Source: Burkholderiales bacterium (GTDB taxonomy: Bacteria; Pseudomonadota; Gammaproteobacteria; Burkholderiales; SG8-39). Taken from it: a DNA stretch of 64,000 bases. The notes under the pieces were generated by a model. It saw only the letters and a program-made list of their open reading frames with translations. It did not search any database and was not told where the DNA came from. The stretch is taken from the NCBI GenBank assembly GCA_040902335.1, contig JBBDXL010000101.1:24579-88578 (forward strand). The letters run 5' to 3'. Below are positions 3,925-42,249 of the stretch, in pieces; positions within the stretch are counted from its first letter, which is position 1, and every line of letters starts with the position of its first letter. A program made the translations under genes and the position numbers.

Positions 3925-3959
3925 TGCCGCCCAATATGGGCTTGCGAGGGAATAACGGC

Positions 3960-3973
3960 TTGATTTCAATCAA
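3960..3973. promoter_or_regulatory. FNR-type box TTGATTTCAATCAA (perfect consensus)
   Basis: Palindrome in the hemN / kinase divergent gap. The centre at 3966.5 is 42.5 bp from the hemN ATG 3924. Confidence 0.8.
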
Positions 3974-3998
3974 ACCCGGGCTGTTTCGCCATCCCGCG

Positions 3999-5246
3999 GT
4001 GATCGCCGCCGGGGGGGCGGCGCTCGCCGCGCTGCTGATCATGAACGGCGCCGCGTTCATCCGCGGCATGGACTCCCCCTGGCTGCTGGGCGCAGTCATC
4101 CTCACCGACCTGGCGGTGGTCGGCGTGAGCCTGGTCGCGGCGCTCTGGTCGATCGCGGTCTGGGGCGGGCGCAAGGACGTGAGCGAAGCGCGCCTGGACG
4201 CCATCGTCGACTCGGCGATGGACGCCATCCTCACCGTGGACGCGGCGCAGAACGTCGTGCTGTTCAACCGCGCCGCCGAGCAGATGTTCGGCGTGCGCCG
4301 CGACGACGCCCTCGGCTCGCCGCTCGACCGCTTCATTCCGCAACGCTTCCGCGGCGCGCACCGCGCGCACGTCGAGAAGTTCGGCCACACCGGCGTCACC
4401 AGCCGGCGCATGGGCGACCAGACGACTCTGTGGGCGCTGCGCGCCGACGGCAGCGAGTTCCCCATCGAGGCCTCGATCTCGCAGGCGGGCGAGCCGGGCA
4501 GCCGCTTCTTCACCGTGATCCTGCGCGATATCACGCTCCGCAAGCAGAACGAGGACACGATGCTCCGGCAGCAGCAGGAGCTGCGCGAGCTTTCGGCGCG
4601 CGTGCTGGAGGCGCGCGAGGAGGAAAAGACGCGCATCGCGCGCGAGCTGCACGACGAGCTGGGGCAGCTGCTCACGGCGCTCAAGATGGACCTCGCCTGG
4701 CTGCGCGAGCGCCTGCCCGAGACCGGGCCCGAGCTCGCGGCGCGCGCCGACGGCATGAGCGCGCTCCTCGACCGCACCGTGAGCTCGAGCCGGCGCATCG
4801 CCGCGGACCTGCGGCCGCTGATGCTCGACGACCTCGGGCTCGCCGAGGCGGCGCAATGGCTGGTGGAGGATTTCGCCAAGCGCTCCGCGATCCGGGTCGA
4901 GATGCAGGCGCCCGAAGACCTCGCGCTGGAGGCACTGTCCAAGGGTGCCGCCACGGCGCTGTACCGCGCGCTGCAGGAATCGCTCACCAACATCGCCCGC
5001 CATTCCGGGGCGAAAAGCGCCTGGATCGTGCTGGCGCAGGACAACGGCACGCTGCACCTGGAGATCGAGGACGACGGGCGCGGCATCGCCGCCGAGGACC
5101 TCGCGAAGGCGAGCTCGCTCGGCCTGAAGGGCATGCGCGAGCGCATCGCCTACTACGGCGGCTCGCTGGAAGTGGCGCGCGCGCCGCGCGGCGGCACGCG
5201 GCTGCGCGTGCGCATGCCGCTCCCCTCCGGCGGTGCCGAGGCATGA
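3999..5246 (+). CDS. PAS-domain sensor histidine kinase (HisKA_3 / NarX-DegS type)
   Basis: ORF 3924..5246. One or two N-terminal TM segments, a PAS region (DAIVDSAMDAILTVDAAQNVVLFNRAAEQMFG), an H-box (ELHDELGQLLTAL) and HATPase motifs (DDGRGI, GLKGMRER). The start is uncertain: GTG 3999, ATG 4041 or ATG 4068. ATG 3924 would abut the hemN start. Confidence 0.88.
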   Translation: MIAAGGAALAALLIMNGAAFIRGMDSPWLLGAVILTDLAVVGVSLVAALWSIAVWGGRKDVSEARLDAIVDSAMDAILTVDAAQNVVLFNRAAEQMFGVRRDDALGSPLDRFIPQRFRGAHRAHVEKFGHTGVTSRRMGDQTTLWALRADGSEFPIEASISQAGEPGSRFFTVILRDITLRKQNEDTMLRQQQELRELSARVLEAREEEKTRIARELHDELGQLLTALKMDLAWLRERLPETGPELAARADGMSALLDRTVSSSRRIAADLRPLMLDDLGLAEAAQWLVEDFAKRSAIRVEMQAPEDLALEALSKGAATALYRALQESLTNIARHSGAKSAWIVLAQDNGTLHLEIEDDGRGIAAEDLAKASSLGLKGMRERIAYYGGSLEVARAPRGGTRLRVRMPLPSGGAEA

Positions 5247-5866
5247 TCCGCGTCCTGCTCGCCGACGACCACCAGATCGTGCGCGACGGCCTGCGCGGCA
5301 TTCTCGCCGCGCAGGCCGACGTCGAGGTCGCGGGCGAGGCGGCGGACGGCGACCAGGCGCTCGCGCTGGTGCGCGCCAACGACTACGACGTGGCCGTGCT
5401 CGACCTGTCGATGCCGGGCCTCTCGGGGCTCGACCTCGTCAAGCGCCTGAAGCTGGAAAAGCCGAAGCTCAGGCTGCTCGTGCTCTCGATGCACGGCGAG
5501 CAGCAGTACGCCGTGCGCGCGCTCAAGGCCGGGGCGTCGGGCTATCTCACCAAGGACAGCGCATCGGCGCAGCTGATCGGCGCGCTGCGCAAGATCGCGG
5601 CCGGAGGCGTGCACGTCTCGGAGGCCACCGCCCTCGGGCTGGTGAGCGCGGCGAGCGGCGACGGCCCGCCGCACGCGCGCCTCTCGGACCGCGAGTTCGA
5701 GGTGTTGAAGCTGCTCGCCGGCGGCGCGAGCCCTACGGACATCGCGCGCAGGCTGCACCTGTCGGTGAAGACCGTGAGCACGCACAAGACGCGCGTGCTG
5801 GACAAGCTCGGTCTGGGCGGCACCGCGGAGCTGGTGCGCTACGCCCTGGAGCACAAGCTGGTCTAG
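5243..5866 (+). CDS. NarL/FixJ-family response regulator (REC + LuxR-type HTH)
   Basis: MIRVLLADDHQIVRDGL...DLSMPGLSG...LSDREFEVLKLLAGGASPTDIARRLHLSVKTVSTHKTRVLDKLG. The ATG overlaps the kinase stop (ATGA). Confidence 0.95.
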   Translation: MIRVLLADDHQIVRDGLRGILAAQADVEVAGEAADGDQALALVRANDYDVAVLDLSMPGLSGLDLVKRLKLEKPKLRLLVLSMHGEQQYAVRALKAGASGYLTKDSASAQLIGALRKIAAGGVHVSEATALGLVSAASGDGPPHARLSDREFEVLKLLAGGASPTDIARRLHLSVKTVSTHKTRVLDKLGLGGTAELVRYALEHKLV

Positions 5867-5934
5867 GACTTTTCCGAGCCGCGAATCAGCCGCCGCCGAT
5901 GGCCGGCGCCGCGGCGCGCCGCCACACTGGCGGC

Positions 5935-6312
5935 ATGCAAACGCGCACCGTCTATCTCGTAGAGGACTCGCCCCTGGTGAGCGAGCGCCTGCTCGAGATG
6001 CTCGAGGACGTGCCCGGCGTGCGCGTGACGGGCCACACCACACGCGCCGACGACGCGATCCGCGACATCCTCGCCGGGCGTCCCGACGTCGTGGTGCTCG
6101 ACATCCGGCTCGCGCAGGGCAGCGGCTTCGATGTGCTGCGTGCGCTGCACGATCAGGCGCCCGAGATCGAGGTCTACATGCTCTCCAGCTTCGCCTCCGA
6201 TCCGTACCGGCACCTCGCCGCGCGGCTCGGGGCGCGCGGCTTCTTCGACAAGGCCACCGAATTCACCCGCGTGCGCGACGCCGTCGCCGCGCGCGCCGCG
6301 CTCACGCACTGA
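5935..6312 (+). CDS. single-domain response regulator (CheY-like receiver only)
   Basis: C-terminal 125 aa of ORF 5233..6312, from ATG 5935: MQTRTVYLVEDSPLVSERLLEML...DVVVLDIRLAQGSGFDVLRAL. Confidence 0.85.
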   Translation: MQTRTVYLVEDSPLVSERLLEMLEDVPGVRVTGHTTRADDAIRDILAGRPDVVVLDIRLAQGSGFDVLRALHDQAPEIEVYMLSSFASDPYRHLAARLGARGFFDKATEFTRVRDAVAARAALTH

Positions 6313-6329
6313 AGAAAAGAGAGGACGCC

Positions 6330-7070
6330 ATGCACGCTGTCACCGCCATTCACGCCGCGCCCGCATCGAAGAAGTTCGAAGTCACCTGCTCGAGCTGCAA
6401 CCTGCGCGAGATGTGCCTGCCCGCCGGGCTGTGCGCCGAGGACCTCGAGCGCATCGAGAACGTGGTCTACGCGCGCCGGCGCCTGAAGCGCGGCGAGCCG
6501 CTGTTCAATGCCGGGGACAGCTTCAGCGCGGTGTACGCCATCCGCAGCGGCTTCTTCAAGACCAGCCTGCTCGACCCCGACGGGCGCGAGCAAGTCACCG
6601 GCTTCTTCATGGGCGGGGAGCTGCTCGGCATGGACGGCATCGGCGGCGCGCACCACGGCACCGCCATCGCGCTCGAGGACAGCGAGGTGTGCGTGCTGCC
6701 CTACGCGCTGATCGAGGACCTGTCGCGCGAGATCCCGGCGCTGCAGCGCCAGCTGCACGCGGTGCTGGCGCGCGAGATCGCGCGCGACCACGGCGTGATG
6801 ATGCTGCTCGGCTCGATGCGCGCCGAGGAGCGCCTGGCGACGTTCCTGCTCAACCTGTCCAGGCGCTTCGTGCGCCGCGGCTACTCCTCGACCGAGTTCC
6901 ACCTGCGCATGACGCGCGACGAGATCGGCAGCTACCTCGGCCTGAAGCTGGAGACGGTGAGCCGGCTGTTCTCCGCGTTCCAGAAGGACGGCCTGATCGA
7001 GGTGCAGCAGAAGCACGTGCGCATCCGCGAAATCGAGGGCCTGGAGCGGGTGCTCGCGACGCGGCACTGA
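6330..7070 (+). CDS. fnr: FNR (Crp/Fnr family, [4Fe-4S] oxygen-sensing transcription factor)
   Basis: 246 aa. N-terminal CSSCNLREMC aligns with E. coli FNR C20/C23/C29 and DSEVCVLPY with C122. The recognition helix ETVSRLF matches E. coli ETISRLL. An AAGAGAGGA Shine-Dalgarno sequence lies upstream. Confidence 0.95.
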   Translation: MHAVTAIHAAPASKKFEVTCSSCNLREMCLPAGLCAEDLERIENVVYARRRLKRGEPLFNAGDSFSAVYAIRSGFFKTSLLDPDGREQVTGFFMGGELLGMDGIGGAHHGTAIALEDSEVCVLPYALIEDLSREIPALQRQLHAVLAREIARDHGVMMLLGSMRAEERLATFLLNLSRRFVRRGYSSTEFHLRMTRDEIGSYLGLKLETVSRLFSAFQKDGLIEVQQKHVRIREIEGLERVLATRH

Positions 7071-16953: not shown

Positions 16954-17000
16954 GGCGGTCAACCTCAGGGGCTATGGTGCGTTGCACGCCTGCGCCGGAC

Positions 17001-17014
17001 TTGACCTGGATCAA
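17001..17014. promoter_or_regulatory. FNR-type box TTGACCTGGATCAA
   Basis: Perfect TTGAY-N4-RTCAA. The centre at 17007.5 is 54.5 bp upstream of the E2 ATG 16953, which allows a leader carrying a Shine-Dalgarno sequence. Confidence 0.7.
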
Positions 17015-17099
17015 CTGCGGGGCAAGCCCCGGGTGGGACGCGACGTCGTTTCTGGTGCTCTACAATTCGAACCGCAACGCGACAAAGAACCAGACGCAG

Positions 17100-18689
17100 A
17101 TGCCTCGGCGCACTACCGACAAGAAAAAGCGACGGAAACTTCGGACGTACTCCCGCTCGACCGTCCAAAAACGGAGGCCGTCGCGCGCGCGCCAACTTCG
17201 ACAGGAAGTCGCGTCCTACGCCGTTGGTCGCGATCGGTTCGTCGATACCGTCGGCGACCAGTACAGTGCGCTTCATTCCCCGGCGACGCGCAGGAGAAGG
17301 GGCATCACGTTCACGCCGCCCGAGTTGGTCGAGCAGATGGTGGCGCTTGCACAACGAGGCGGCGTCGACATCAAGCGCATCGTTGATCCAGGTGCGGGAA
17401 CGGGGCGCTTCACAATTGCCGCCGCGCGAGCTTTCCCTGCCGCATCGATCGTGGCGATCGAGTACGACCGCGTGCTGGCCAGTCTGTTGCTGGGCAACCT
17501 CACCGCCGCGGGGCTCGGTGACCGGGTCCAAGTACACGTGGCGGATTTTCGCGCGGCGATGTTGCCGCGCATCGAAGGCGCAACGCTCTTCATTGGAAAT
17601 CCGCCCTACGTGCGGCATCACGACATCGAGTCGTCGTGGAAGCAGTGGTACTCATCCCGGCTGGCGTCGAGGGGCATTCGCGGGAGCCAGCTCGCCGGCC
17701 TGCATGCCCACTTCATGGTGAAGACGTTCGACCTGGCGCAGGAAGGCGATCTCGTCTGCTATGTGACCTCCGCTGAATGGCTCGACACCCACTACGGGTC
17801 GGCGCTGAGAGCGCTCTTGCTCGCCGCGGCCCGCGACATCGACATTGTGCTGTTGGATCGCGCATCACCCGCGTTCGCGGACGCAATGACCACGTCGGCC
17901 GTCTTGTCGTACCGCCACTTGCGGGGCGCATCGTCGGTGAACCTAAGGCTGATCGCCTCGATTCGAGAGTTGTCGAGCGTCCCTGCATCTGCAGGGGTCC
18001 GAAAGCGGGACCTTTCTCATTTTGATGCATGGAGCAGATTCGCAACCGCTGGTCCCACAGCGGATGTCGGTTCTGCCGCGAGGTTGGGCGATCTATTCTC
18101 GGTTCATCGGGGTCAGGTCACGGGAAACAACATGATCTGGGTCGAGGGCCGGTATCCAGGACTGCTTCCTGATCAGGTCCTCTTCCCCACCGTCACGCGA
18201 GCCAGAGATTTGCTCGATCTCGGATCGGACCGCCTGCTCGAAGTAACGACCCTGAAGCGGGTTGTCGATCTCCCTGCAGATTGGTCGCGAAGCGCGGATC
18301 TCGAGGCCGGGCAGATCCGGAGATTCATCGACTGGGCCGGCAAGCATGGCGGGCGCGACAGCTATATCGCGCGGCACCGCAAACCATGGTTCAAGGTGGG
18401 CCTGCGCGAACCGGCGCCCATCATCATGACCTACATGGCGCGCAGGTCGCCCAGGTTCGTCCGCAATCTGTGCGGAGCCCGCTTGATCAATATTGCCCAT
18501 GGCCTGTATCCGAGAGAACCGATTCCCGCGACCGATCTCGATCTCATCACGAAGTGGCTGAACGCGAACGTGTCGCGCGACGGCGGCCGCACGTATTCCG
18601 GGGGCCTGACGAAGTTCGAGCCCAGGGAAGTCGAAAGACTTCACTTACCGGTGCTTGAAGAGTTACGGACCCCAGGAACTGCCTCGTGA
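17100..18689 (+). CDS. N6-adenine DNA methyltransferase, gamma class (Eco57I/TaqI-like), type II RM
   Basis: ORF 16974..18689. Motif I VDPGAGTGRF comes about 90 aa before motif IV GNPPYV. A TaqI-like C-terminal specificity region follows. The likely start is ATG 17100 (MPRRTTDKKKRR). Local GC is about 60% versus about 72% in the flanks. Confidence 0.85.
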   Translation: MPRRTTDKKKRRKLRTYSRSTVQKRRPSRARQLRQEVASYAVGRDRFVDTVGDQYSALHSPATRRRRGITFTPPELVEQMVALAQRGGVDIKRIVDPGAGTGRFTIAAARAFPAASIVAIEYDRVLASLLLGNLTAAGLGDRVQVHVADFRAAMLPRIEGATLFIGNPPYVRHHDIESSWKQWYSSRLASRGIRGSQLAGLHAHFMVKTFDLAQEGDLVCYVTSAEWLDTHYGSALRALLLAAARDIDIVLLDRASPAFADAMTTSAVLSYRHLRGASSVNLRLIASIRELSSVPASAGVRKRDLSHFDAWSRFATAGPTADVGSAARLGDLFSVHRGQVTGNNMIWVEGRYPGLLPDQVLFPTVTRARDLLDLGSDRLLEVTTLKRVVDLPADWSRSADLEAGQIRRFIDWAGKHGGRDSYIARHRKPWFKVGLREPAPIIMTYMARRSPRFVRNLCGARLINIAHGLYPREPIPATDLDLITKWLNANVSRDGGRTYSGGLTKFEPREVERLHLPVLEELRTPGTAS

Positions 18690-19618
18690 GCTGGCCCAAG
18701 CACGCGCGCAAGTGGAGCCCCGCGGAGATCCTCAAGGATGTGGCGAAGGCGAGGAACCAATTCAGAGTTCGCAGAGTTGGAGAACCGCGGGAGAGGTACG
18801 TGCACGCGTTCCGCGTCATCGAGCGGGCGAATCGCACGATAACACCGCAGCTTTCACGGCTCTTTGACGACCCCCTTGACGTGGACCTGTTGATCTCAAT
18901 CGTGAAGGACAAGGAACTTCTGTCGGCGTTTCGGTACCTCGCGGCACCGCCGGTTTCCCAGGACGACCTCGAGACGCTGTCGGGCGCCCGGCTCGCCTGG
19001 ACTCAGTTGAAAGCCAGTCCCGCGAAGGCGGCGGCAGTCAGAAACGTTGTCGCCTCGATTCTGGACACGAAGCGGTTCGGGTGGTTGCGCGAGCGGCGAG
19101 CTCCGAGGAAACACGAGACGGAGGCCGCAATTCTCGCTTCGACTGTCGTTGCGTCTGCGCAGAGGGTTCAAACGGAGAGGCGCTCGGAGGAACGAAAGGA
19201 ACTCCAGGATGCGGTAATACAGGTTCTGGAGAGGATGAAGTATCGGCGGGCCGACAAGCCGCGCAAGGGGGTTCAGAACCTTCGCCGCGATGCGCCGAAG
19301 CCTGGCGAGTACATGACTGAAGTGTTGATCCATGAACACAACGCGGACGTCGCGGTCGGCATGAAAGATTTCCGGATCCTCGCGGTCGAGTGCAAAGGAT
19401 CGAACAGCGAGATCAACAGCCGCAAGAGAATCAACAAGGAGGTCGCGCGCGACGCGTCGAGCTGGATCGAGCGATTTGGCGATGAGATCGTGCCGGCTGC
19501 GGTCGTCCAGGGCGTCTTCAATGCGACGTATATCGAGCAAGCCCAGGAGACCCCCGTGGTGTTCATCTGGGCACACCGGCTCGAGGACCTCGAGCGATTC
19601 CTGAACGCGAGTCGATAG
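18686..19618 (+). CDS. putative type II restriction endonuclease (PD-(D/E)xK-like; XamI-like from memory only)
   Basis: 310 aa. The GTG start overlaps the methylase stop (GTGA). Candidate catalytic stretch: HNADVAVGMKDFRILAVECKGSNSE (D...E-x-K). Same low-GC patch as the methylase. Confidence 0.6.
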   Translation: MSWPKHARKWSPAEILKDVAKARNQFRVRRVGEPRERYVHAFRVIERANRTITPQLSRLFDDPLDVDLLISIVKDKELLSAFRYLAAPPVSQDDLETLSGARLAWTQLKASPAKAAAVRNVVASILDTKRFGWLRERRAPRKHETEAAILASTVVASAQRVQTERRSEERKELQDAVIQVLERMKYRRADKPRKGVQNLRRDAPKPGEYMTEVLIHEHNADVAVGMKDFRILAVECKGSNSEINSRKRINKEVARDASSWIERFGDEIVPAAVVQGVFNATYIEQAQETPVVFIWAHRLEDLERFLNASR

Positions 19619-21737: not shown

Positions 21738-23452
<1,715 letters not shown>

Positions 23453-23488
23453 CAAGCGCCCTGCCGACCTGCCCGCAACAATCCTGCA

Positions 23489-24016
23489 ATGGCCGAGTAC
23501 CCGCTGCACCTCGTGCGCCGGCGCACGCTCGCCGACGGCCGCACCGTGACCATCCGCCCGATCCGCGCCGAGGACGAGATGCCCACGCGCGACTTCTTCG
23601 AGCACCTGTCCGCGGAATCGCGGCAGATGCGCTTCATGAAGTTCGTAAGATCGGTCTCCGACAAGCTGATCCACTTCTTCACGCACGTCGACTACGAAAA
23701 GCACATGGCGTTCGTGTGCGAGGCCGAGCTCGAGGGCCGGCCGACGCTGGTGGGCGAGGCGCGCTACGTCGGCAACCCCGACGGCCGCAGCTGCGAGTTC
23801 GGCGTGGTGATCGCGGACGACTGGCGCCACAGCGGCATCGCCGGGCTGCTGATGGACGCGCTGATCCGCGCCGCGCGCGCCAACGGCATGGAGACCATGG
23901 AGGGTCTGGTGCTGCGCGAGAACCGCGAGATGATGAAGTTCGTGCGCGCGCTCGGCTTCGAGGCGACGGCCGATCCGGTAGAGTCCACCCTGATGCGAGC
24001 GGTGAAGAAGCTTTGA
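23489..24016 (+). CDS. GNAT N-acetyltransferase resembling the catalytic domain of Pat-type protein lysine acetyltransferases
   Basis: 175 aa: [31 protein letters not shown]...[30 protein letters not shown]. Confidence 0.8.
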
Positions 24017-24714
24017 GCGGCCCGGTCTTCCAGGCAAACCCGCGGCTCGCCCTTGAAGGCATCGAAGCGGTGATCTTCGACCTCGATGGCGTGGTGACGC
24101 GGACCGCGAAGGTCCATGCCCAGGCGTGGCAGGAGGCGTTTGCGCCCCTCCCCTTCGACCCCGTGGCCGATTACCTGCGCTACGTCGACGGCAAGCCGCG
24201 CGAAGACGGCGTGCGCAGCTTCCTCGCCGCGCGCGGCATCGCCGCCGCCGACGAGGAGGTGCGCGCGATCGGCGCGCGCAAGAACGCCCTCTTTCTCGAG
24301 CGCCTGCGCGACGGCGTGGAGGTGTACGAAACCACGCTCGCGCTGATCCGCGCGCTGCGCCGGCGGGGCGTGCGCACCGCGCTGGTGACCGCCAGCCGCA
24401 ACGCGGACGCGGTGCTGCAGGCTGCCGGAATCCACGATCTGTTCGACGCGCGCGTCGACGGCAACGACGCCGCGCGCCTGGGGCTGGCCGGCAAGCCCGC
24501 GCCGGATACCTTTCTGCACGCCGCCGAGGCGCTCGGCGTCGCGCCCGCGCGCGCGGCGGTGGTGGAGGACGCGCTCGCCGGCGTGGAGGCGGGTCGTGCG
24601 GGTGGCTTCGGCGCGGTGATCGGCGTGGACCGCGCCGGGCAGGCCGAAGCGCTGCGCGAGCACGGTGCGACGCTCGTGGTGGGCGATCTCGGCGAGCTGG
24701 AGCGCGCGGCATGA
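24013..24714 (+). CDS. HAD-superfamily hydrolase, beta-phosphoglucomutase-like
   Basis: TTG 24013 overlaps the GNAT stop (TTGA). [12 protein letters not shown] (DxDG motif), [30 protein letters not shown]. Confidence 0.85.
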
Positions 24715-25463
24715 GCCGCGCGACGCCCGAGGCAATCCGCGCCGCGGCAGGCAGCCGCGGGCTGGCGCTGTTCCTCGACTACGACGGCACGCTTTCGCCG
24801 ATCGTCGAGCGCCCGGAGGACGCGGTGCTCGCCCCGGAAACCCGCGAGGTGCTGCAGCGTCTCGCGCGGCGCCACCCGGTCGCCATCGTGAGCGGGCGCG
24901 ACCTCGAGGACGTGCGCCGGCGCGTCGGGCTGCCAGAGGTGCATTACGCCGGCTGCCACGGCTTCGAGATCGCCGGGCCGCGCGGCAACCGCGTGCACGG
25001 CGCCGCGGCGGCCGCCGCGCCGCAGCTCGCCGCCGCTGCGGACCAGGTGGCGCGCGACACCCACGATCTCCCAGGGGTGCAGCTCGAGCGCAAGCGCTTC
25101 ACGCTCGCCGTCCACTACCGGCGCGCGCGCGACGCGGACGTGCCCGCGGTACGCGATGCCGTGGCGCGCGCGCAGGCGCGCCACCCGGCGCTGCGCGTGA
25201 CCTCGGGCAAGAAGGTGTTCGAGCTGCAGCCCGACGTGGACTGGGACAAGGGGCGCGCGGTGCTGTGGCTCATCGAGACGCTCGGCCTCGAGGACGCGTT
25301 GCCGGTCTACATCGGCGACGACGTCACCGACGAGGACGCCTTCCGCGCGCTCGCGCATCGCGGCGTCGGCATCGCGGTGCAGGAAGCGCCGCAGCCCACC
25401 GCCGCGCAATACACGCTGCGCGACACGGACGAGGTGCGCGCCCTGCTCGCCGGCCTCGCGTGA
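24711..25463 (+). CDS. otsB: trehalose-6-phosphate phosphatase
   Basis: [35 protein letters not shown]. The ATG overlaps the upstream stop (ATGA). Confidence 0.9.
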
Positions 25464-27835
25464 GCTGGAGCCTCGACTACCGCGAGTTCAAGCCCGAGGA
25501 AGAGCGCCTGCGTGAAGCGCTCTGCACCCTGGGAAACGGCTACTTCGCCACGCGCGGCGCGGCCCCCGAGGCCGCCGCCGGCGAGGTGCACTATCCGGGC
25601 ACCTACCTCGCCGGCGGCTACGACCGCCAGGCGACCGAGATCGCGGGGCGCGAGATCGAGAACGAGGACCTGGTCAATTTGCCCAACTGGCTCGCGCTGG
25701 CTTTTCGCATCGACGGCGCCGACTGGTTCGACCTGAAGGCGGTCGAGATCCTCGACTACCGGCAGGTGCTCGATTTCTCCTGCGGCATGCTCGAGCGCCA
25801 CGTGCGCTTTCGCGACGCCGCGGGGCGCCACACGCGGTTCGACGAACGGCGCCTCGTCCACATGGCCGAGCCGCACCTCGCGGCGCTGGAAACGGTGCTC
25901 ACCGCCGAGGACTGGAGCGGCCCGCTCGAAGTCGTGAGCGCGCTCGACGCTCGCGTGGAGAACGCGGGCGTGGCGCGCTACCGCGACCTCGCGCGCAGGC
26001 ACCTCGAGCCGCTCGAGGCGCGCGCCGCGGGCGCGGACACGGTGCTCCTGAAGGTGCGCACCCTGCAGTCGCGGCTGGAAATCGCGCTCGCCGCGCGCAC
26101 GCGGCTCGACCGCCCCTGCCAGGCGCGCGAGCTCGTCGAGGCCGGGTACGCCGGGAGCAGGCTGCATCTCGAGCCGCGGCAAGGCGAGCCGCTGCGCATC
26201 GAGAAGATCGTGGCGCTGCATACCTCGCGCGACCGGGCCATCTCGGAGTGCGGCGAAGCAGCGCTCGCGAGCGCCGCGCGCGCGCCGGACTTCGCCGCGC
26301 TCGCGGCGAGCCACGGCCTCGCCTGGAGCCACCTGTGGCAGCGCTTCGACATCGCGCTCGAGGACGGCGGCGAGCGCACGCAGCGCATCCTGCGCCTGCA
26401 CATCTTCCACCTCCTGCAGACCGCCTCGCCCAACAGCAAGATGCTCGACGCCGGCGTGCCCGCGCGCGGGCTGCACGGCGAGGCTTACCGCGGCCACATC
26501 TTCTGGGACGAGCTGTTCATCTTCCCGCTGCTGAACTTCCGCCTGCCCGAGATCACGCGCGCGCTGCTGCTCTACCGCTACCACCGGCTCGGCGCAGCGC
26601 GCGAGGCCGCGCGCGCGGCGGGCTATCGCGGCGCCATGTTCCCCTGGCAGAGCGGCTCGAGCGGGCGCGAGGAAAGCCAGGTGCTGCACCTCAACCCGCG
26701 CTCGGGGCGCTGGATCCCGGACCACACCTACTTGCAGCGCCACGTCAACGCGGCGATCGCCTACAACGTCTGGCAGTACTACCAGGTGACGCGCGACCTG
26801 GAGTTCCTCGGCTTCTACGGCGCCGAGATGTTCCTCGAGATCGCGCGCTTCTGGGGCGGCTTCGCCACCTTCAACGAGACGCACCAGCGCTACGAGATCC
26901 TCGGCGTGGTCGGCCCCGACGAGTTCCACACCGCGGACGCGGAAACCGGGCGCCCGGGGCTCGACAACCACGCCTACACCAGCGTCATGGCGGCCTGGGT
27001 GCTGGCGCGCGCCTTCGACGTGCTCGCGGCGCTGCCGGATGAGCGCCGGCGCGAGCTGCGCGAGACGCTCGCGCTGGGCGACGAGGAGCTCGCGCGCTGG
27101 GACGACGCCAGCCGGCGCATGCGCGTCGCCTTTCACGGTAACGGCATCATCAGCCAGTTCGAGGGCTACGAGCAGCTCGCCGAGCTCGACTGGGACCGCT
27201 ACCGCGCCGAGTACCGCGATTTCTCGCGCCTGGACCGCGTGCTCGAGGCCGAGGGCGACGACGTCAACCGCTACAAGGCGTCCAAGCAGGCCGACGTGCT
27301 GATGCTGTTTTACCTGTTCTCCGCCGAGGAGCTGGAGGAGATCTTCGGCCGGCTCGGCTACTCGTTTCCCGCCGACACCATCCCGAAGAACGTCGCCTAC
27401 TACGCGGCGCGCACCACGCACGGCTCTACGCTCTCGCGCGTGGTGAACTCGTGGGTGCTCGCGCGCTCGGACCGCGCCGGCTCCTGGCGCCAGTTCCTCG
27501 AGGCGCTGGAGAGCGACGTCGGCGACATCCAGGGCGGGACGACCTCCGAGGGCATCCATCTCGGGGCCATGGCGGGCACCGTCGACCTGGTGCAGCGCGG
27601 CTATACCGGCATCGAGGCGCGCGGCGACGTGCTCTGGCTCAACCCGCGGCTGCCGCAGGAGCTCGCCTGCCTGCGCCTCACCGTGCGCTACCGCGGCCTC
27701 ACGCTCGATCTCGAAGTGCGCCAGGAAGTCCTCGAAGTGCACGCGCGCGCCTCGAACGCCGCACCCATCGCGCTCGGCGTGGTCGACGCGGTGCACAGCC
27801 TGAAGGCCGGGGAAACGCGGCGTTTCCCGTTATGA
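25460..27835 (+). CDS. glycoside hydrolase family 65 protein (trehalose/kojibiose/maltose phosphorylase-like)
   Basis: 791 aa. GTG 25460 overlaps the otsB stop (GTGA). LCTLGNGYFATRGA, GLHGEAYRGHIFWDELFIFP, FPWQSGSSGREE, KQADVLMLFYLF, GGTTSEGIHLGAMAG. Confidence 0.9.
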   Translation: MSWSLDYREFKPEEERLREALCTLGNGYFATRGAAPEAAAGEVHYPGTYLAGGYDRQATEIAGREIENEDLVNLPNWLALAFRIDGADWFDLKAVEILDYRQVLDFSCGMLERHVRFRDAAGRHTRFDERRLVHMAEPHLAALETVLTAEDWSGPLEVVSALDARVENAGVARYRDLARRHLEPLEARAAGADTVLLKVRTLQSRLEIALAARTRLDRPCQARELVEAGYAGSRLHLEPRQGEPLRIEKIVALHTSRDRAISECGEAALASAARAPDFAALAASHGLAWSHLWQRFDIALEDGGERTQRILRLHIFHLLQTASPNSKMLDAGVPARGLHGEAYRGHIFWDELFIFPLLNFRLPEITRALLLYRYHRLGAAREAARAAGYRGAMFPWQSGSSGREESQVLHLNPRSGRWIPDHTYLQRHVNAAIAYNVWQYYQVTRDLEFLGFYGAEMFLEIARFWGGFATFNETHQRYEILGVVGPDEFHTADAETGRPGLDNHAYTSVMAAWVLARAFDVLAALPDERRRELRETLALGDEELARWDDASRRMRVAFHGNGIISQFEGYEQLAELDWDRYRAEYRDFSRLDRVLEAEGDDVNRYKASKQADVLMLFYLFSAEELEEIFGRLGYSFPADTIPKNVAYYAARTTHGSTLSRVVNSWVLARSDRAGSWRQFLEALESDVGDIQGGTTSEGIHLGAMAGTVDLVQRGYTGIEARGDVLWLNPRLPQELACLRLTVRYRGLTLDLEVRQEVLEVHARASNAAPIALGVVDAVHSLKAGETRRFPL

Positions 27836-27842
27836 CCCGTAC

Positions 27843-27861
27843 GGTGGGCCATGGGCCCACC
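27843..27861. terminator. GC hairpin between convergent genes (possible bidirectional terminator)
   Basis: GGTGGGCC-ATG-GGCCCACC: perfect 8-bp stem with a 3-nt loop, between the GH65 stop (27835) and the CBS gene stop (27862). There is no U-tract, so confidence is low. Confidence 0.35.
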
Positions 27862-28320
27862 CTACAGCGGCGCGCGCTTGTCGCGCTCGCGCATGCGGCC
27901 CCAGCGCAGCGCCTCGGCGAGCTGCGCGAGCTCCGTGGAGATCACGCGCAGCACGTCGTCCAGCGTGACGATGCCCTTCAAGCTGCCGTCGGCCGCCACC
28001 ACCGGCAGGCGGCGCACGGCGCGCTCGGACATGCGCTGCACGGCCTCGAAGATCCCGTCGTCCTCCTGCGCCACCGCCAGCTGCGTGGACATCGCGTCGG
28101 CGACGCGGATGCCCTCGGGCCGCGCGCCGGGCACGGCGACGACCGCGACCACGATGTCGCGGTCGGTGAGGATGCCGACCGGCCGCACGACCCCTTCCTT
28201 CTTCTCCACGACGACGAGGGCGCCGACGTGCTGGTTGCGCATGAGGAGCGCCGCTTCGCGCAAGCTCGCGCCCGGCTCGCCGAGCACGACCTTCGGGCTG
28301 TAGAAATCGCGCACTTTCAC
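27862..28320 (-). CDS. CBS-pair domain protein
   Basis: 152 aa with two CBS repeats (GALVVVEKKEGVVRPVGILTDRDIV; LPVVAADGSLKGIVTLDDVL). Confidence 0.9.
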   Translation of the reverse strand: MKVRDFYSPKVVLGEPGASLREAALLMRNQHVGALVVVEKKEGVVRPVGILTDRDIVVAVVAVPGARPEGIRVADAMSTQLAVAQEDDGIFEAVQRMSERAVRRLPVVAADGSLKGIVTLDDVLRVISTELAQLAEALRWGRMRERDKRAPL

Positions 28321-28321
28321 G

Positions 28322-28816
28322 CTAGCGGCTCCAGCTCACGCGCAGCAGGTTGTCGGCCTTGTTGTAGCGGTAGTCGAGCTCGCCCTTGTAGGCGTGCTGC
28401 AGCGCATCGCCGATGCGCCGCGCCAGATGCGCGCCGGTCGTGGTCACCAGGACGCCGCGACCCTCGGCCTCGATCGCCATGATGCGCTCGAGCGGGTGGC
28501 CGCGCTTCTCCGCCGCCTCGCAGCGGTGCACGCGCCCGAGGACTTCCTCGCGGTGCGCGTCGAAGAACTCCCCCTGCACCGAGACGTACCCGGCCGGAAA
28601 GCGGTCGCGGATGCGCTTGCACGCCGGGCAGCGCCCCTCGTGCGCGCCCGCCGGCGCCGCGCCCCAGCTCCAGCGCCCGCGGCGCCAGAGCGCGCCGCAG
28701 TCCTTGCAGCGCGTAGGCTCGGGAAGCTTCCTCCTGGACTTGTAGGTATCGTGCACCACCTGTTCGAGCAGCTGCTCCTGCCGGTGCGTGCGGACGTGCT
28801 TGCGCTGTGATTTCAT
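28322..28816 (-). CDS. conserved zinc-ribbon protein of unknown function
   Basis: ORF 28322..28864. CKDCG...CPACK four-Cys ribbon. I prefer ATG 28816 (MKSQRKHVRTH) because the longer start lies inside FNR box D. From memory only, it resembles proteins encoded in the B. cenocepacia low-oxygen-activated locus. Confidence 0.6.
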   Translation of the reverse strand: MKSQRKHVRTHRQEQLLEQVVHDTYKSRRKLPEPTRCKDCGALWRRGRWSWGAAPAGAHEGRCPACKRIRDRFPAGYVSVQGEFFDAHREEVLGRVHRCEAAEKRGHPLERIMAIEAEGRGVLVTTTGAHLARRIGDALQHAYKGELDYRYNKADNLLRVSWSR

Positions 28817-41640: not shown

Positions 41641-41700
41641 AGGGGGCGGCGCGGCGCGGCGGCATGCTTGGCGCGTCAGCCACCCAGGAGACCAAACGCC

Positions 41701-42249
41701 ATGCAACTCCCCGTGCAGATCACCTACCGCGGCATGGAAAGCTCCGCGGCCATCGAGGACGCGGTGCGCGACCGGGCCGCCAAGCTGGAGCAGTTCCATG
41801 CGCGCATCATGAGCTGCCGCGTGGTGATCGAGCAGCCCGCGCGCCACAAGACGAAGGGCAAGGAGTTCGTGGTGCACCTCGACCTCAAGGTGCCCGGCGG
41901 CGAGATCGCGGTGACCCGCGACCATCACGAGGACGTGTACGTCGCGCTGCGCGACGCGTTCGACGCCGCGCGCCGCAAGCTCGAGGACTTCGCGCGCGAG
42001 AGCCGCGGCGACGTCAAGCAGCACGAGCCCACGCAATCGGGCACCGTGGCGCGCATCCTGGCCGGGGAAGGCTACGGCTTCATCGCCACCGCCGACGGCC
42101 GCGAGCTGTACTTCTCGCGCGAGAACGTGGTGACGCCGCCGTTCGAGCACCTCGCCGCGGGCACCGCGGTGCATTTCATCGAGGAAGCGGCCGCCGAAGG
42201 CCCGCAGGCGAAGCGCGTCAGCGCGCGCCACGGCGCGGCGGGCGGCTGA
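41701..42249 (+). CDS. HPF/RaiA (S30AE) ribosome-hibernation domain fused to a cold-shock (CSD/OB) domain
   Basis: N-terminal part: MQLPVQITYRGMESSAAIEDAVRDRAAKLEQF...VVHLDLKVPGGEIAV...DVYVALRDAFDAARRKLEDF. C-terminal part: GTVARILAGEGYGFIATADGRELYFSRENVV (RNP1-like GYGFI). Confidence 0.8.
   Translation: MQLPVQITYRGMESSAAIEDAVRDRAAKLEQFHARIMSCRVVIEQPARHKTKGKEFVVHLDLKVPGGEIAVTRDHHEDVYVALRDAFDAARRKLEDFARESRGDVKQHEPTQSGTVARILAGEGYGFIATADGRELYFSRENVVTPPFEHLAAGTAVHFIEEAAAEGPQAKRVSARHGAAGG

What the first reader, a model, noticed from the sequence alone, without database searches (positions are those of the whole stretch)
24013..27835. The three domains of the mycobacterial OtsB1 fusion appear here as three translationally coupled genes
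A HAD beta-phosphoglucomutase-like gene (24013..24714), otsB (24711..25463) and a GH65 phosphorylase-like gene (25460..27835) overlap by 4 nt each (ATGA, GTGA).

As I recall, M. tuberculosis OtsB1 (Rv2006, DosR regulon) carries the same three modules in a single polypeptide of roughly 1300 aa, and its physiological reaction is still unclear.

A split version under FNR control offers a tractable system for working out what the module does. One possibility is trehalose or trehalose-6-P phosphorolysis to beta-glucose-1-P, followed by conversion by the beta-PGM-like enzyme.
Basis: partly seen in the sequence, partly recalled or inferred. Interest (0 to 1): 0.55.

Follow-up and report, generated by a model that had tools for sequence, protein, structure and literature searches.

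The report
Split OtsB1-like trehalose gene trio
Three overlapping genes (a beta-phosphoglucomutase, a trehalose-6-phosphate phosphatase and a GH65 enzyme that looks like a trehalose-6-phosphate phosphorylase) form a probably oxygen-regulated operon; they are the unfused counterpart of the uncharacterised mycobacterial dormancy protein OtsB1, but the trio is widespread in bacteria and archaea, not unique to this window.

Summary
Genes at 24013-24714 (HAD/beta-PGM), 24711-25463 (OtsB) and 25460-27835 (GH65) overlap by ATGA and GTGA. They align colinearly (45-56% identity) with the three segments of 1320-1338 aa Mycobacterium 'trehalose-phosphatase' fusions. Rv2006 itself could not be retrieved.

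All catalytic motifs are intact. The GH65 has the catalytic Glu and the phosphate site. Its specificity fingerprint matches trehalose-6-phosphate phosphorylases, not trehalose, kojibiose or maltose phosphorylases.

The trio is really the tail of a four-gene operon. A GNAT gene (23489-24016) heads it, behind an FNR box placed for a leaderless class II promoter. The window is a low-oxygen island with 13 FNR boxes and its own FNR gene.

The module is not rare. More than 590 species genomes carry this GH65 clade, always in the order HAD, TPP, GH65. Architectures range from fully split (5 of 80 loci sampled, including cultured Pontibacter) to triple fusions, after repeated fusion and fission.

I propose UDP-glucose-independent trehalose synthesis: G6P to beta-G1P, then beta-G1P plus G6P to T6P, then T6P to trehalose. 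This is moderately interesting and is a testable hypothesis for OtsB1.

The parts
23442..23455 (.). FNR/Anr-type box TTGACCTGCATCAA. It lies between the divergent acyl/acetyl-CoA synthetase-like gene and the GNAT gene. Its centre is 40.5 nt upstream of the GNAT ATG.
   Evidence: 13 such boxes in the window against 0.02 expected; sequence; a box at the same place before the orthologous GNAT in L005/L006.
23477..23482 (+). -10-like hexamer AACAAT, 7 nt before the GNAT ATG. Together with the box position it predicts a leaderless transcript from a class II FNR promoter. This is an inference.
   Evidence: L005 has GACAAT at the same offset. The sigma-70 consensus scan found nothing here.
23489..24016 (+). 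GNAT acetyltransferase gene (175 aa), first gene of the operon. Its stop TGA (24014-24016) overlaps the HAD start TTG (24013).
   Evidence: PF00583/PF13302; 86% identical to the GNAT that heads the L005 operon.
24013..24714 (+). HAD-IA beta-phosphoglucomutase-family gene (233 aa), TTG start.
   Evidence: Best solved relative is 8h5s, a beta-PGM (6e-49). DxD, T, H, R (cap), S-x-R-N, K and E-D are all conserved.
24711..25463 (+). otsB, trehalose-6-phosphate phosphatase (250 aa), HAD-IIB.
   Evidence: TIGR00685 scores 186.8 bits. Best solved relative is 5gvx (2e-60). Motifs DYDGTL, SGR, K and GDDVTDED are intact.
25460..27835 (+). GH65 glycoside phosphorylase (791 aa), predicted trehalose-6-phosphate phosphorylase.
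   Evidence: Best solved relative is 9lb6 (448 bits). Catalytic Glu, phosphate site R/Y/S-T/H and fingerprint DQGQWE are present.
27843..27861 (.). 8-bp GC-rich hairpin between the convergent GH65 and CBS genes. It is a possible terminator, but weak evidence.
   Evidence: no U-run, and the fold z-score is only -1.55. The terminator scan found none.
6330..7070 (+). CRP/FNR-family regulator with the FNR iron-sulfur cysteines (C20, C23, C29, C~121). It is the likely trans-acting factor for the boxes.
   Evidence: Pfam; translation.

Best explanation
The operon GNAT-HAD-otsB-GH65 is switched on at low oxygen by an FNR-type regulator. Its last three products would form a linear, nucleotide-sugar-independent route from glucose-6-phosphate to trehalose:

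1. The HAD enzyme is a beta-phosphoglucomutase and makes beta-glucose-1-P from glucose-6-P.
2. The GH65 enzyme is a trehalose-6-phosphate phosphorylase run in its thermodynamically favoured synthetic direction: beta-G1P + G6P -> trehalose-6-P + Pi.
3. OtsB hydrolyses trehalose-6-P irreversibly and so pulls the two reversible steps.

The net reaction is 2 G6P -> trehalose + 2 Pi. It needs no UDP-glucose, which suits an energy-starved, non-growing cell. The mycobacterial OtsB1 fusion would do the same.

Shown: gene structure, family assignments, intact active sites, the T6P-phosphorylase fingerprint, the FNR boxes, and conservation of the module.

Inferred: substrate, direction of flux, induction by hypoxia, and the leaderless promoter.
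For: 1. Enzyme identities rest. The GH65 has the CsKP-equivalent residues E483, K330(R), Y337, S631, S632(T) and H675.
2. At the six specificity-determining positions of De Beul 2021 (PMC8537180), the GH65 reads D-Q-G-Q-W-E. This is identical to 9lb6, a T6P-acting GH65. It matches 5 of 6 positions of the published T6P-phosphorylase motif DQGQDE. It is unlike the KP (EEAP..), TP (TRIGPP) and MP (KV[MF]NES) motifs.
3. Rosetta-stone logic. In 80 species loci the order is always HAD-TPP-GH65. HAD is fused to TPP in 29, all three are fused in 8, and fusion or fission has happened repeatedly. Since TPP is irreversible, TPP and the phosphorylase are consecutive enzymes only if the phosphorylase makes T6P.
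4. The TPP motifs are intact in the window and in the Mycobacterium and Nocardia fusions.
5. T6P phosphorylase plus beta-PGM is used preparatively to make T6P in high yield. That 2026 paper calls its own related three-enzyme, coenzyme-free route (maltose phosphorylase, T6P phosphorylase, polyphosphate glucokinase) 'new-to-nature' (PMC11442529, PMC13121652).
6. No sugar-uptake family recurs next to the module. The recurrent neighbours are Usp, PfkB, PEP synthase, FBP aldolase, phosphoketolase and glycogen enzymes.
7. The module is linked to hypoxia or dormancy in three lineages:
   - Window and L005: FNR box at -40. L032 (alphaproteobacterium): FNR box 63 nt before the HAD-TPP ATG.
   - Mtb: DosR regulon.
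   - A mycobacterial MAG: the fusion gene sits inside a NiFe-hydrogenase/hyp cluster.
8. Trehalose accumulates massively in dormant M. smegmatis (PMC5371599).
Against: 1. No enzyme was assayed. Substrate and direction are inferred.
2. In M. tuberculosis, deleting the stand-alone beta-PGM Rv3400 raises beta-G1P 30-fold and impairs growth on trehalose (bioRxiv 10.1101/2025.11.20.689507). So at least one GH65 there runs phosphorolytically in vivo.
3. The beta-PGM equilibrium lies far towards G6P, so the beta-G1P supply is small. From remembered constants I estimate equilibrium T6P at only about 0.1 mM.
4. otsA (GT20) lies next to the module in 3 loci. There the module could be acting on OtsA-made T6P.
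5. An Mtb otsB1 mutant had no phenotype, and OtsB1 was reported, without data, to lack phosphatase activity.
6. Fourteen of 80 loci are HAD-GH65 fusions with no TPP nearby.
7. The HAD protein is below the NCBIfam beta-PGM equivalog cut-off (123.8 against 189.4).
Confidence: 0.45

Rival explanations
1. Catabolic shunt. Trehalose-6-P, made by OtsA or by phosphorylating uptake, is phosphorolysed by the GH65 to beta-G1P + G6P. The beta-PGM converts beta-G1P to G6P, as in the Lactococcus lactis TrePP/PgmB pathway. This feeds stored carbohydrate into glycolysis during hypoxia without spending ATP.
For: - The enzyme pair is the same as in the characterised L. lactis pathway (PMC12125463).
- The Mtb rv3400 deletion accumulates beta-G1P and grows poorly on trehalose.
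- Neighbours such as PfkB, FBP aldolase and phosphoketolase are catabolic.
- HAD-GH65 fusions without TPP are common (14 of 80).
- otsA is adjacent in 3 loci.
Against: - The phosphatase has no role and would compete for the substrate. Yet TPP is fused to HAD or GH65 in about 39 of 80 loci, and its motifs are intact.
- No PTS, trehalose kinase or sugar transporter recurs nearby.
- With OtsA as the T6P source, the net reaction (UDP-Glc + Pi -> UDP + G6P) is pointless.
- The equilibrium of the phosphorylase favours synthesis.
Confidence: 0.25
2. T6P safety valve. The module is a near-equilibrium buffer that keeps toxic trehalose-6-P low by two exits: dephosphorylation to trehalose, and phosphorolysis to hexose phosphates. 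It runs in either direction depending on G6P, Pi and T6P levels. It is not a dedicated synthetic or catabolic route.
For: - Both reversible steps are near equilibrium (my estimate from remembered constants).
- T6P accumulation is toxic in mycobacteria (from memory: OtsB2 depletion studies).
- The presence of both TPP-containing and TPP-less architectures fits a flexible role.
- It reconciles the Mtb rv3400 deletion data with the fusion logic.
Against: - It does not explain why the three activities are so persistently kept in one operon or polypeptide, or why hypoxia regulons control them.
- There is no direct evidence.
Confidence: 0.2
3. A different substrate. The GH65 and the 'OtsB' act on another alpha-glucoside phosphate (for example a glucosyl-X-phosphate compatible solute) rather than trehalose-6-P, so the product is not trehalose.
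For: - Several GH65 subgroups with phosphorylase-type sites still have unknown natural substrates (PMC8537180).
- The window protein is only 35% identical to the nearest T6P-acting structure.
- One of the six fingerprint positions differs from the published T6PP motif. Mycobacterial fusions differ at one or two more (SQGPWE).
Against: - The fingerprint is identical to 9lb6 at all six positions.
- The partner phosphatase scores far above the T6P-phosphatase equivalog cut-off (186.8 against 68).
- The whole clade is uniform (DQGQWE in 65 of 91 sequences).
Confidence: 0.1

Closest known systems
M. tuberculosis OtsB1 (Rv2006) and its Mycobacteriales orthologues: HAD-TPP-GH65 fusion proteins of about 1320-1340 aa
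   Same: The three modules and their order are the same, at 45-56% identity per module. Catalytic motifs are intact in all three. Both are linked to a hypoxia regulon: DosR there, FNR-type here.
   Different: Here there are three separate, translationally coupled genes, not one polypeptide. The GH65 is not the sister of the mycobacterial domain in the tree. The fingerprint is DQGQWE here and SQG(P/Q)WE there. The regulator type differs. Rv2006 itself was not available for direct alignment.
Lactococcus lactis trehalose-6-phosphate phosphorylase (TrePP, EC 2.4.1.216) plus beta-phosphoglucomutase PgmB
   Same: The same two enzyme families are paired. The GH65's nearest solved structure is a T6P-acting enzyme (9lb6, 448 bits), and the specificity fingerprint matches.
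   Different: The lactococcal pathway is catabolic, is fed by a trehalose PTS, and has no T6P phosphatase. Here a phosphatase is an integral third partner, no uptake system is linked, and identity is only about 35%.
M. tuberculosis Rv3400 (beta-PGM) / Rv3401 (GH65) gene pair
   Same: The window HAD's best solved relative, 8h5s, is a 260-aa beta-PGM whose DxD numbering (D27/D29) fits Rv3400. Actinobacterial HAD|GH65 pairs belong to the same GH65 clade.
   Different: That pair has no TPP. Genetic data there point to phosphorolytic (catabolic) flux.
OtsA/OtsB (TPS/TPP) trehalose synthesis
   Same: The last step (T6P phosphatase) and the end product are shared.
   Different: T6P would come from beta-G1P + G6P through a phosphorylase, instead of from UDP/ADP-glucose through a GT20 synthase. 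No otsA is present in the 64-kb window.
Burkholderia cenocepacia lxa (low-oxygen-activated) locus
   Same: Both are large islands dense in FNR/Anr-like boxes. Both carry USPs, an FtsH-type protease, a cation ATPase, an FNR-family regulator and other genes that mirror the DosR regulon (PMC3721108).
   Different: The published lxa locus lists no trehalose genes. Here the trio is part of the island.

Membership tests
GH65 glycoside phosphorylase | GH65 N-terminal, central (alpha/alpha)6 and C-terminal domains | tested here: met
   PF03636 243.7 bits, PF03632 425.2 bits, PF03633 42.2 bits.
GH65 glycoside phosphorylase | Catalytic acid Glu (CsKP E483) and the -1 subsite residues F342, W343, D344, K596, Q597 | tested here: met
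   all conserved (GPDEFH, FWD, KQAD).
GH65 glycoside phosphorylase | Phosphate site in place of a catalytic base (CsKP K/R330, Y337, S631, S632, H675) | tested here: met
   R, Y, S, T, H. Ser632 is Thr here, as in 9lb6. Definitions from PMC11442529.
Trehalose-6-phosphate phosphorylase (EC 2.4.1.216) | Specificity-determining positions CsKP 64/392/394/402/416/585 = DQGQDE | tested here: met
   D-Q-G-Q-W-E. This matches 5 of 6 positions of the published motif and 6 of 6 of 9lb6. The fifth position lies in loop 3.
Trehalose-6-phosphate phosphorylase (EC 2.4.1.216) | Closest characterised or solved relative acts on T6P; long loops 3 and 7, short loop 11 | tested here: met
   9lb6 scores 448 bits against 342 for kojibiose phosphorylase; loop 7 is 4 residues longer than in CsKP, and loop 3 is within 3 residues of the CsKP length; loop 11 is one residue longer than in CsKP. 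That 9lb6 is a phosphorylase, although deposited as 'hydrolase', is inferred from Feng 2025 as cited.
Trehalose-6-phosphate phosphorylase (EC 2.4.1.216) | Reversible T6P + Pi <-> beta-G1P + G6P activity | not testable with these tools
   Needs enzymology.
beta-Phosphoglucomutase (HAD-IA) | NCBIfam subfamily and equivalog models | tested here: inconclusive
   TIGR02009 (beta-PGM family) 175.9 bits, above the 153.35 cut-off. The equivalog TIGR01990 scores 123.8 bits, below the 189.4 cut-off.
beta-Phosphoglucomutase (HAD-IA) | Catalytic residues of L. lactis beta-PGM (D8, D10, T16, H20, R49, S114/S116/K117/N118, K145, E169, D170) | tested here: met
   D23, D25, T31, H35, R63, T126/S128/R129/N130, K161, E185, D186. 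Best PDB match is the beta-PGM 8h5s at 6e-49.
Trehalose-6-phosphate phosphatase OtsB (HAD-IIB) | Equivalog model and HAD motifs I-IV | tested here: met
   TIGR00685 186.8 bits (cut-off 68). [18 protein letters not shown]; 5gvx at 2e-60.
OtsB1-type HAD-TPP-GH65 module | All three modules present, adjacent, in the order HAD, TPP, GH65 | tested here: met
OtsB1-type HAD-TPP-GH65 module | Single polypeptide of about 1300 aa | tested here: not met
   stop codons separate the three genes, and relatives L005 and L007 are the same. The window holds the same module but not the fusion protein.
FNR/Anr regulon member | TTGAT-N4-ATCAA-type box at class II distance from the transcript start, and an FNR regulator with the Cys cluster present | tested here: met
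   the box centre is 40.5 nt before the first start codon of the operon. This is conserved in L005. The regulator is at 6330-7070.
FNR/Anr regulon member | Induction at low oxygen that depends on the regulator | not testable with these tools
   Needs expression data.

The most novel reading that the evidence does not exclude
The beta-PGM / T6P-phosphorylase / T6P-phosphatase trio, whether split as here or fused as in OtsB1, is a natural, nucleotide-sugar-independent sixth pathway of trehalose biosynthesis (2 G6P -> trehalose + 2 Pi). Distantly related bacteria, and some archaea, would deploy it under hypoxia or dormancy regulons (FNR, DosR) to make a protectant when ATP and UTP are scarce. This would assign a function to the long-orphan DosR gene Rv2006. 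It would also show that an in vitro route recently called 'new-to-nature' already exists in nature.
Probability: 0.4. Interest if true: 0.8.

Novelty: new variant of a known kind. Interest (0 to 1): 0.5.

Why it matters
OtsB1 is a DosR-regulon protein of M. tuberculosis whose reaction has been unknown for two decades.

Three results together turn 'function unknown' into a specific reaction scheme that can be tested in vitro:
- The three modules travel together across phyla in every degree of fusion.
- The GH65 part carries a trehalose-6-phosphate-phosphorylase fingerprint.
- The module sits under low-oxygen regulators in at least three unrelated lineages.

If the synthetic direction is right, dormant or oxygen-starved cells have a way to make trehalose without nucleotide sugars. 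That bears on persistence, desiccation and anoxia tolerance, and on targeting trehalose metabolism in TB.

If the catabolic direction is right, the module is an ATP-sparing way of mobilising T6P. Either way, the naturally split genes, which are also present in cultured Pontibacter, make it easy to express the domains one at a time.

Tried and rejected
- Retrieving Rv2006 itself failed. Two homologue searches seeded with Nocardia and Mycobacterium fusions returned only other species, and the single genome scan was capped at the 80 best loci. Orthologues from Mycobacterium spp. were used instead.
- An exact look-up of the window's own GH65 (P0001) found no contig on record.
- The paper that probably describes 9lb6 (Feng 2025, JAFC) is not held. 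That 9lb6 is a T6P phosphorylase therefore rests on the deposit name and a citation.
- The sigma-70 promoter and intrinsic-terminator scans over 23200-28400 found nothing. The hairpins after the GH65 gene are no more stable than shuffled sequence (z = -1.55), so I do not claim a terminator.
- I considered that the split genes were frameshift errors of a fused gene. I rejected this because three independent assemblies share the same junctions.
- I considered that the GH65 is a hydrolase ('alpha,alpha-trehalase' in JGI names, 'hydrolase' in the PDB name). I rejected this because the phosphate site is complete.
- I considered a role for the GNAT in trehalose chemistry. This is unsupported. In relatives the GNAT is separated from the trio by an ABC exporter. 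It looks like a Pat-type protein acetyltransferase domain (from memory), possibly tied to the divergent acyl-CoA synthetase.
- Literature searches for any paper naming the three enzymes together found none.
- Structure prediction was not run, because sequence-level matches to solved structures were already strong.

Full report
**Source and observation**

The window is about 71% G+C. Its GH65 protein is 100% identical to one annotated in a 'Burkholderiales bacterium' MAG (P0001).

Third-position GC of 0.9-0.98 jumps from frame to frame at 24013, 24711 and 25460.

The junctions read ...GCG GCA TGA / ATG AGC... and ...CTC GCG TGA / GTG AGC.... The ATGA and GTGA overlaps are therefore real. Only the otsB start has a recognisable Shine-Dalgarno (GGAG at -10), so termination-reinitiation coupling is plausible for the GH65.

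The unit is GNAT-HAD-otsB-GH65.

**What the proteins are**

*HAD protein*
- It reaches the NCBIfam beta-phosphoglucomutase-family model (TIGR02009, 175.9 bits against a cut-off of 153). It falls short of the strict equivalog (TIGR01990, 123.8 against 189.4).
- Its best solved relative is the 260-aa beta-PGM 8h5s (6e-49). The D27/D29 numbering of that structure fits the Rv3400 D29A mutant described in bioRxiv 10.1101/2025.11.20.689507.
- Every catalytic residue of the Lactococcus enzyme is conserved.

*OtsB*
- It scores 186.8 bits on the T6P-phosphatase equivalog (cut-off 68).
- It has all four HAD motifs.
- Its best PDB hit is 5gvx. From memory, 5gvx is M. tuberculosis OtsB2.

*GH65 protein*
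- It has all three GH65 domains.
- Its best solved relative is 9lb6/9lb7 (448 bits, 35% identity). The next is kojibiose phosphorylase 3wiq (342 bits).
- 9lb6 is deposited as 'trehalose-6-phosphate hydrolase'. It is most likely the T6P phosphorylase structure of Feng et al. 2025, cited in PMC13121652. I could not read that paper.

**Catalytic and specificity residues of the GH65**

I used the residue definitions of the 2024 GH65 review (PMC11442529) and CsKP numbering, which I verified on the alignment.
- The window protein has the catalytic acid (E483 equivalent) and the -1 subsite residues F/W/D and K/Q.
- It has the phosphorylase-type phosphate site: R for K330, Y337, S631, T for S632, H675.
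- It is therefore a phosphorylase, not a hydrolase.

At the six specificity-determining positions of De Beul et al. (PMC8537180) it reads D-Q-G-Q-W-E.
- This is identical to 9lb6.
- It matches five of six positions of the motif DQGQDE reported for the biochemically confirmed Caldithrix T6P phosphorylase.
- It is unlike kojibiose (EEAP..), trehalose (TRIGPP), maltose (KV[MF]NES) and oligo-nigerose (FAITQA) phosphorylases.
- The Mycobacterium fusions read SQGPWE, and the Nocardia and Rhodococcus fusions read SQGQWE.

**Comparison with the mycobacterial fusion**

A search of 1.84 billion representatives with the GH65 found several architectures:
- stand-alone proteins of about 800 aa;
- proteins of 1298-1336 aa in which the GH65 occupies the last 800 residues, with Pfam architecture HAD, Trehalose_PPase, GH65 in that order;
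- HAD-GH65 proteins of about 1075 aa;
- a GH65-HAD protein.

One triple fusion is Nocardia transvalensis 'trehalose-phosphatase' WP_040754421.1. Searches seeded with it and with a Mycobacterium protein returned hundreds of Nocardia, Rhodococcus, Mycobacterium and Mycolicibacterium proteins of 1300-1350 aa with the same domains.

The window proteins align colinearly to Mycobacterium sp. proteins P0417, P0401 and P0409:
- HAD to residues about 8-242 (50-51% identity);
- OtsB to residues about 265-507 (45-49%);
- GH65 to residues about 523-1315 (54-56%).

The gene boundaries fall in the short linkers of the fusions. Rv2006 itself did not appear in either list, so the comparison is with congeners. 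Its length (1327 aa), unknown function and DosR control come from the literature.

The TPP motifs of the mycobacterial and nocardial fusions are intact. By sequence there is thus no reason for OtsB1 to be phosphatase-dead. A 2024 preprint notes that the old claim of inactivity was published without data.

**How common the arrangement is**

A scan of one genome per species found at least 590 species with a close relative of this GH65. They span Proteobacteria, Desulfobacterota, Planctomycetota, Nitrospirota, Acidobacteriota, Actinomycetota, Bacteroidota and archaea (Ca. Argoarchaeum, Ca. Ethanoperedens, Methanomassiliicoccus).

I classified the 80 best loci by six-frame ORFs and BLAST:

| Architecture | Loci |
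|---|---|
| HAD-TPP fusion followed by GH65 | 27, plus 2 with a frameshift |
| HAD-GH65 fusion without TPP | 14 |
| GH65 alone | 10 |
| Triple fusion | 8 |
| HAD and GH65 as separate genes | 6 |
| All three separate | 5 |
| TPP then GH65 | 3 |

- The remaining 5 loci are single cases, two of them cut by contig ends.
- The five fully split loci are the window's nearest MAG L007, L048, L062, and the cultured Pontibacter aydingkolensis and P. silvestris.
- Wherever HAD, TPP and GH65 are all present, the order is HAD, TPP, GH65.
- In a neighbour-joining tree (no support values) the architectures are interspersed. Fusion and fission have therefore happened repeatedly.
- The window clade nests among HAD-TPP|GH65 lineages. 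The Mycobacteriales fusions nest among actinobacterial GH65-only and HAD|GH65 lineages.
- Because the genes overlap by ATGA and GTGA, a single-base indel is enough to fuse or split them.
- The fingerprint is uniform across the clade: DQGQWE in 65 of 91 sequences, with all catalytic residues in every one.

The split form is therefore a genuine but ordinary variant of a very widespread, uncharacterised module.

**Regulation**

The pattern TTGAY-N4-RTCAA occurs 13 times in the window against 0.02 expected.

The window also encodes a CRP/FNR-family regulator with the four FNR cysteines (6330-7070).

Genes in the window typical of the B. cenocepacia lxa low-oxygen locus and of the DosR regulon (PMC3721108):
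- hemN;
- two tandem-USP proteins;
- a P-type cation ATPase;
- an FtsH-type protease;
- an S30AE hibernation factor;
- a CBS protein;
- nicotinate phosphoribosyltransferase;
- phosphoribosyltransferases.

The box at 23442-23455 is centred 40.5 nt before the GNAT ATG, and a -10-like AACAAT ends 7 nt before it. The orthologous operon in L005/L006 has a box at 39.5 nt and GACAAT at the same offset. This geometry is that of a class II FNR promoter (centre -41.5, established knowledge) whose transcript would begin at the start codon, that is, a leaderless mRNA. This is inferred, not shown.

Independently, in an alphaproteobacterial (Geminicoccaceae) MAG, a box lies 63 nt before the ATG of the HAD-TPP gene, in a stretch with four boxes (L032).

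In a 4.36-Mb mycobacterial assembly the triple-fusion gene sits inside a NiFe-hydrogenase/hyp cluster next to a WS/DGAT gene (L087). From memory, that hydrogenase class is DosR-controlled in M. smegmatis.

The link between this module and oxygen limitation thus recurs in three lineages with different regulators.

**Mechanism**

The three activities can be arranged in only one linear order, because the phosphatase is irreversible:
1. G6P <-> beta-G1P (beta-PGM).
2. beta-G1P + G6P <-> T6P + Pi (GH65).
3. T6P -> trehalose + Pi (OtsB).

In the opposite, catabolic direction the phosphatase competes with the phosphorylase instead of following it. Yet the phosphatase is the module most often fused to its partners.

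The synthetic direction of T6P phosphorylase is favourable enough for preparative T6P synthesis, also together with beta-PGM (PMC11442529; PMC13121652).

From remembered equilibrium constants (beta-PGM about 28 towards G6P; TrePP phosphorolysis about 0.03), I estimate [T6P][Pi]/[G6P]^2 at about 1. With 1 mM G6P and 10 mM Pi that gives about 0.1 mM T6P, which is enough for a phosphatase to pull. This estimate is my own and unverified.

The route would save the UTP that OtsA needs. That suits non-growing, energy-limited cells. Dormant M. smegmatis accumulates trehalose to 64% of extractable organics (PMC5371599).

A census of the two longest ORFs on each side of the module in about 70 loci showed no recurrent sugar transporter or PTS. 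The recurrent families were Usp (4), phosphoketolase (5), PfkB (4), PEP synthase/PPDK (4), FBP aldolase (3), OtsA (3) and glycogen-debranching enzyme (2). One locus has glycogen phosphorylase next to the GH65.

**Counter-evidence**

- Deleting the stand-alone beta-PGM Rv3400 in M. tuberculosis raises beta-G1P 30-fold and slows growth on trehalose. Some GH65 there therefore produces beta-G1P in vivo.
- HAD-GH65 fusions without TPP are common.
- otsA is adjacent in three loci.
- The two reversible steps are near equilibrium, so direction may depend on conditions.

**Novelty**

- Each enzyme family is known, and the fusion is known but uncharacterised.
- The split arrangement has not been discussed in any paper I could find.
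- No paper in the library names the three activities together.
- A 2026 paper calls its own related coenzyme-free in vitro route to T6P (maltose phosphorylase, T6P phosphorylase, polyphosphate glucokinase) 'new-to-nature'.

The finding is a new variant of a known kind. Its value lies in the hypothesis it sharpens for OtsB1, not in the window's particular copy, which belongs to an uncultured organism.

**A side result that bears on the gene model**

The GNAT is 86% identical to the GNAT that heads the L005 operon. In L005 it is followed by a MacB-type ABC exporter and a membrane-fusion protein before HAD-otsB-GH65.

The first seven codons of the window's HAD gene (TTG AGC GGC CCG GTC TTC C..) are homologous to the start of that ABC gene (TTG AGC GAG ACC GTC TTC C..). 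After that point the sequence switches to the HAD gene.

The window lineage thus appears to have lost about 4.25 kb by an in-frame deletion that grafted the ABC gene's coupled TTG start onto the HAD gene. This supports 24013 as the true start.

Noticed in passing
window 3960-58459 (boxes at 3960, 17001, 23442, 28851, 30598, 34248, 34849, 41245, 41627, 42543, 52984, 53288, 58446): There are thirteen perfect TTGAY-N4-RTCAA boxes in 64 kb, against 0.02 expected. The whole window looks like an lxa-type low-oxygen island. Its gene content mirrors the Mtb DosR regulon: USPs, CBS protein, NAPRTase, phosphoribosyltransferases, S30AE hibernation factor, P-type ATPase, FtsH.
   Followed up: partly
window 23442/23489, 30598/30564, 34248/34212, 58446/58493, 28851/~28816, 17001/16962: Many FNR boxes are centred 40-46 nt from the predicted start codon of the adjacent gene. 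This is the class II distance to a transcription start. It suggests that several genes of the island are transcribed as leaderless mRNAs, or that their start codons are mispredicted.
   Followed up: partly
window 24013-24050 vs L005 2327-2345 and 6581-6610: The 5' end of the HAD gene is homologous to the start of the MacB-type ABC exporter gene that follows the GNAT in relatives L005 and L007. An in-frame deletion of about 4.25 kb (ABC plus membrane-fusion genes) seems to have joined the GNAT directly to the trio.
   Followed up: yes
window 16974-19618: A low-GC (about 62%) restriction-modification pair (Eco57I-type methylase, XamI-type endonuclease) is inserted on the opposite strand. It sits between the E1-beta and E2 genes of a pyruvate/acetoin-dehydrogenase-like operon. 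An FNR box (17001) lies at the insertion edge, just upstream of the E2 start.
   Followed up: partly
window 3924-7070: A PAS histidine kinase with a HisKA_3 domain, a LuxR/NarL-type response regulator (the same family as DosS/DosR) and a single-domain receiver lie immediately upstream of the FNR gene. The island may therefore have two layers of oxygen or redox control.
   Followed up: no
window 41668-42249: One ORF combines a ribosome-hibernation S30AE domain with a C-terminal cold-shock domain. It is preceded by an FNR box (41627). This is an unusual fusion.
   Followed up: no
window 51005-52865: An RtcB RNA ligase and archease gene pair lies within the island, with FNR boxes at 52984 and 53288 nearby.
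   Followed up: no
L087 6001-9945 (mycobacterial 4.36-Mb assembly): The OtsB1-type triple-fusion gene lies in the middle of a NiFe-hydrogenase plus hyp maturation cluster, next to a WS/DGAT (triacylglycerol synthase-like) gene. This is another hypoxia-type context.
   Followed up: partly
L016, L021, L067, L076, L046 (archaeal MAGs): HAD-TPP-GH65 triple fusions occur in archaea: Ca. Argoarchaeum ethanivorans, Ca. Ethanoperedens, a Methanobacteriota archaeon, Methanomassiliicoccus and an uncultured archaeon.
   Followed up: no
P0123 (1336 aa); P0501, P0509, P0514 (about 1211-1216 aa Mycobacterium / unnamed proteins): Some fusions have decayed parts. P0123 has lost the TPP catalytic motifs (GFDACL, GDTSTGG). 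Many mycobacterial (Mycobacterium, Mycolicibacterium) homologues of about 1206-1260 aa cover only about 90% of the full fusion, and several of them have no HAD Pfam hit.
   Followed up: no
L001-L003 6050-10406: In a betaproteobacterial MAG the GH65 (67% identical) has no HAD or TPP neighbour. It follows a truncated-looking glycogen phosphorylase gene and is flanked by transaldolase.
   Followed up: no
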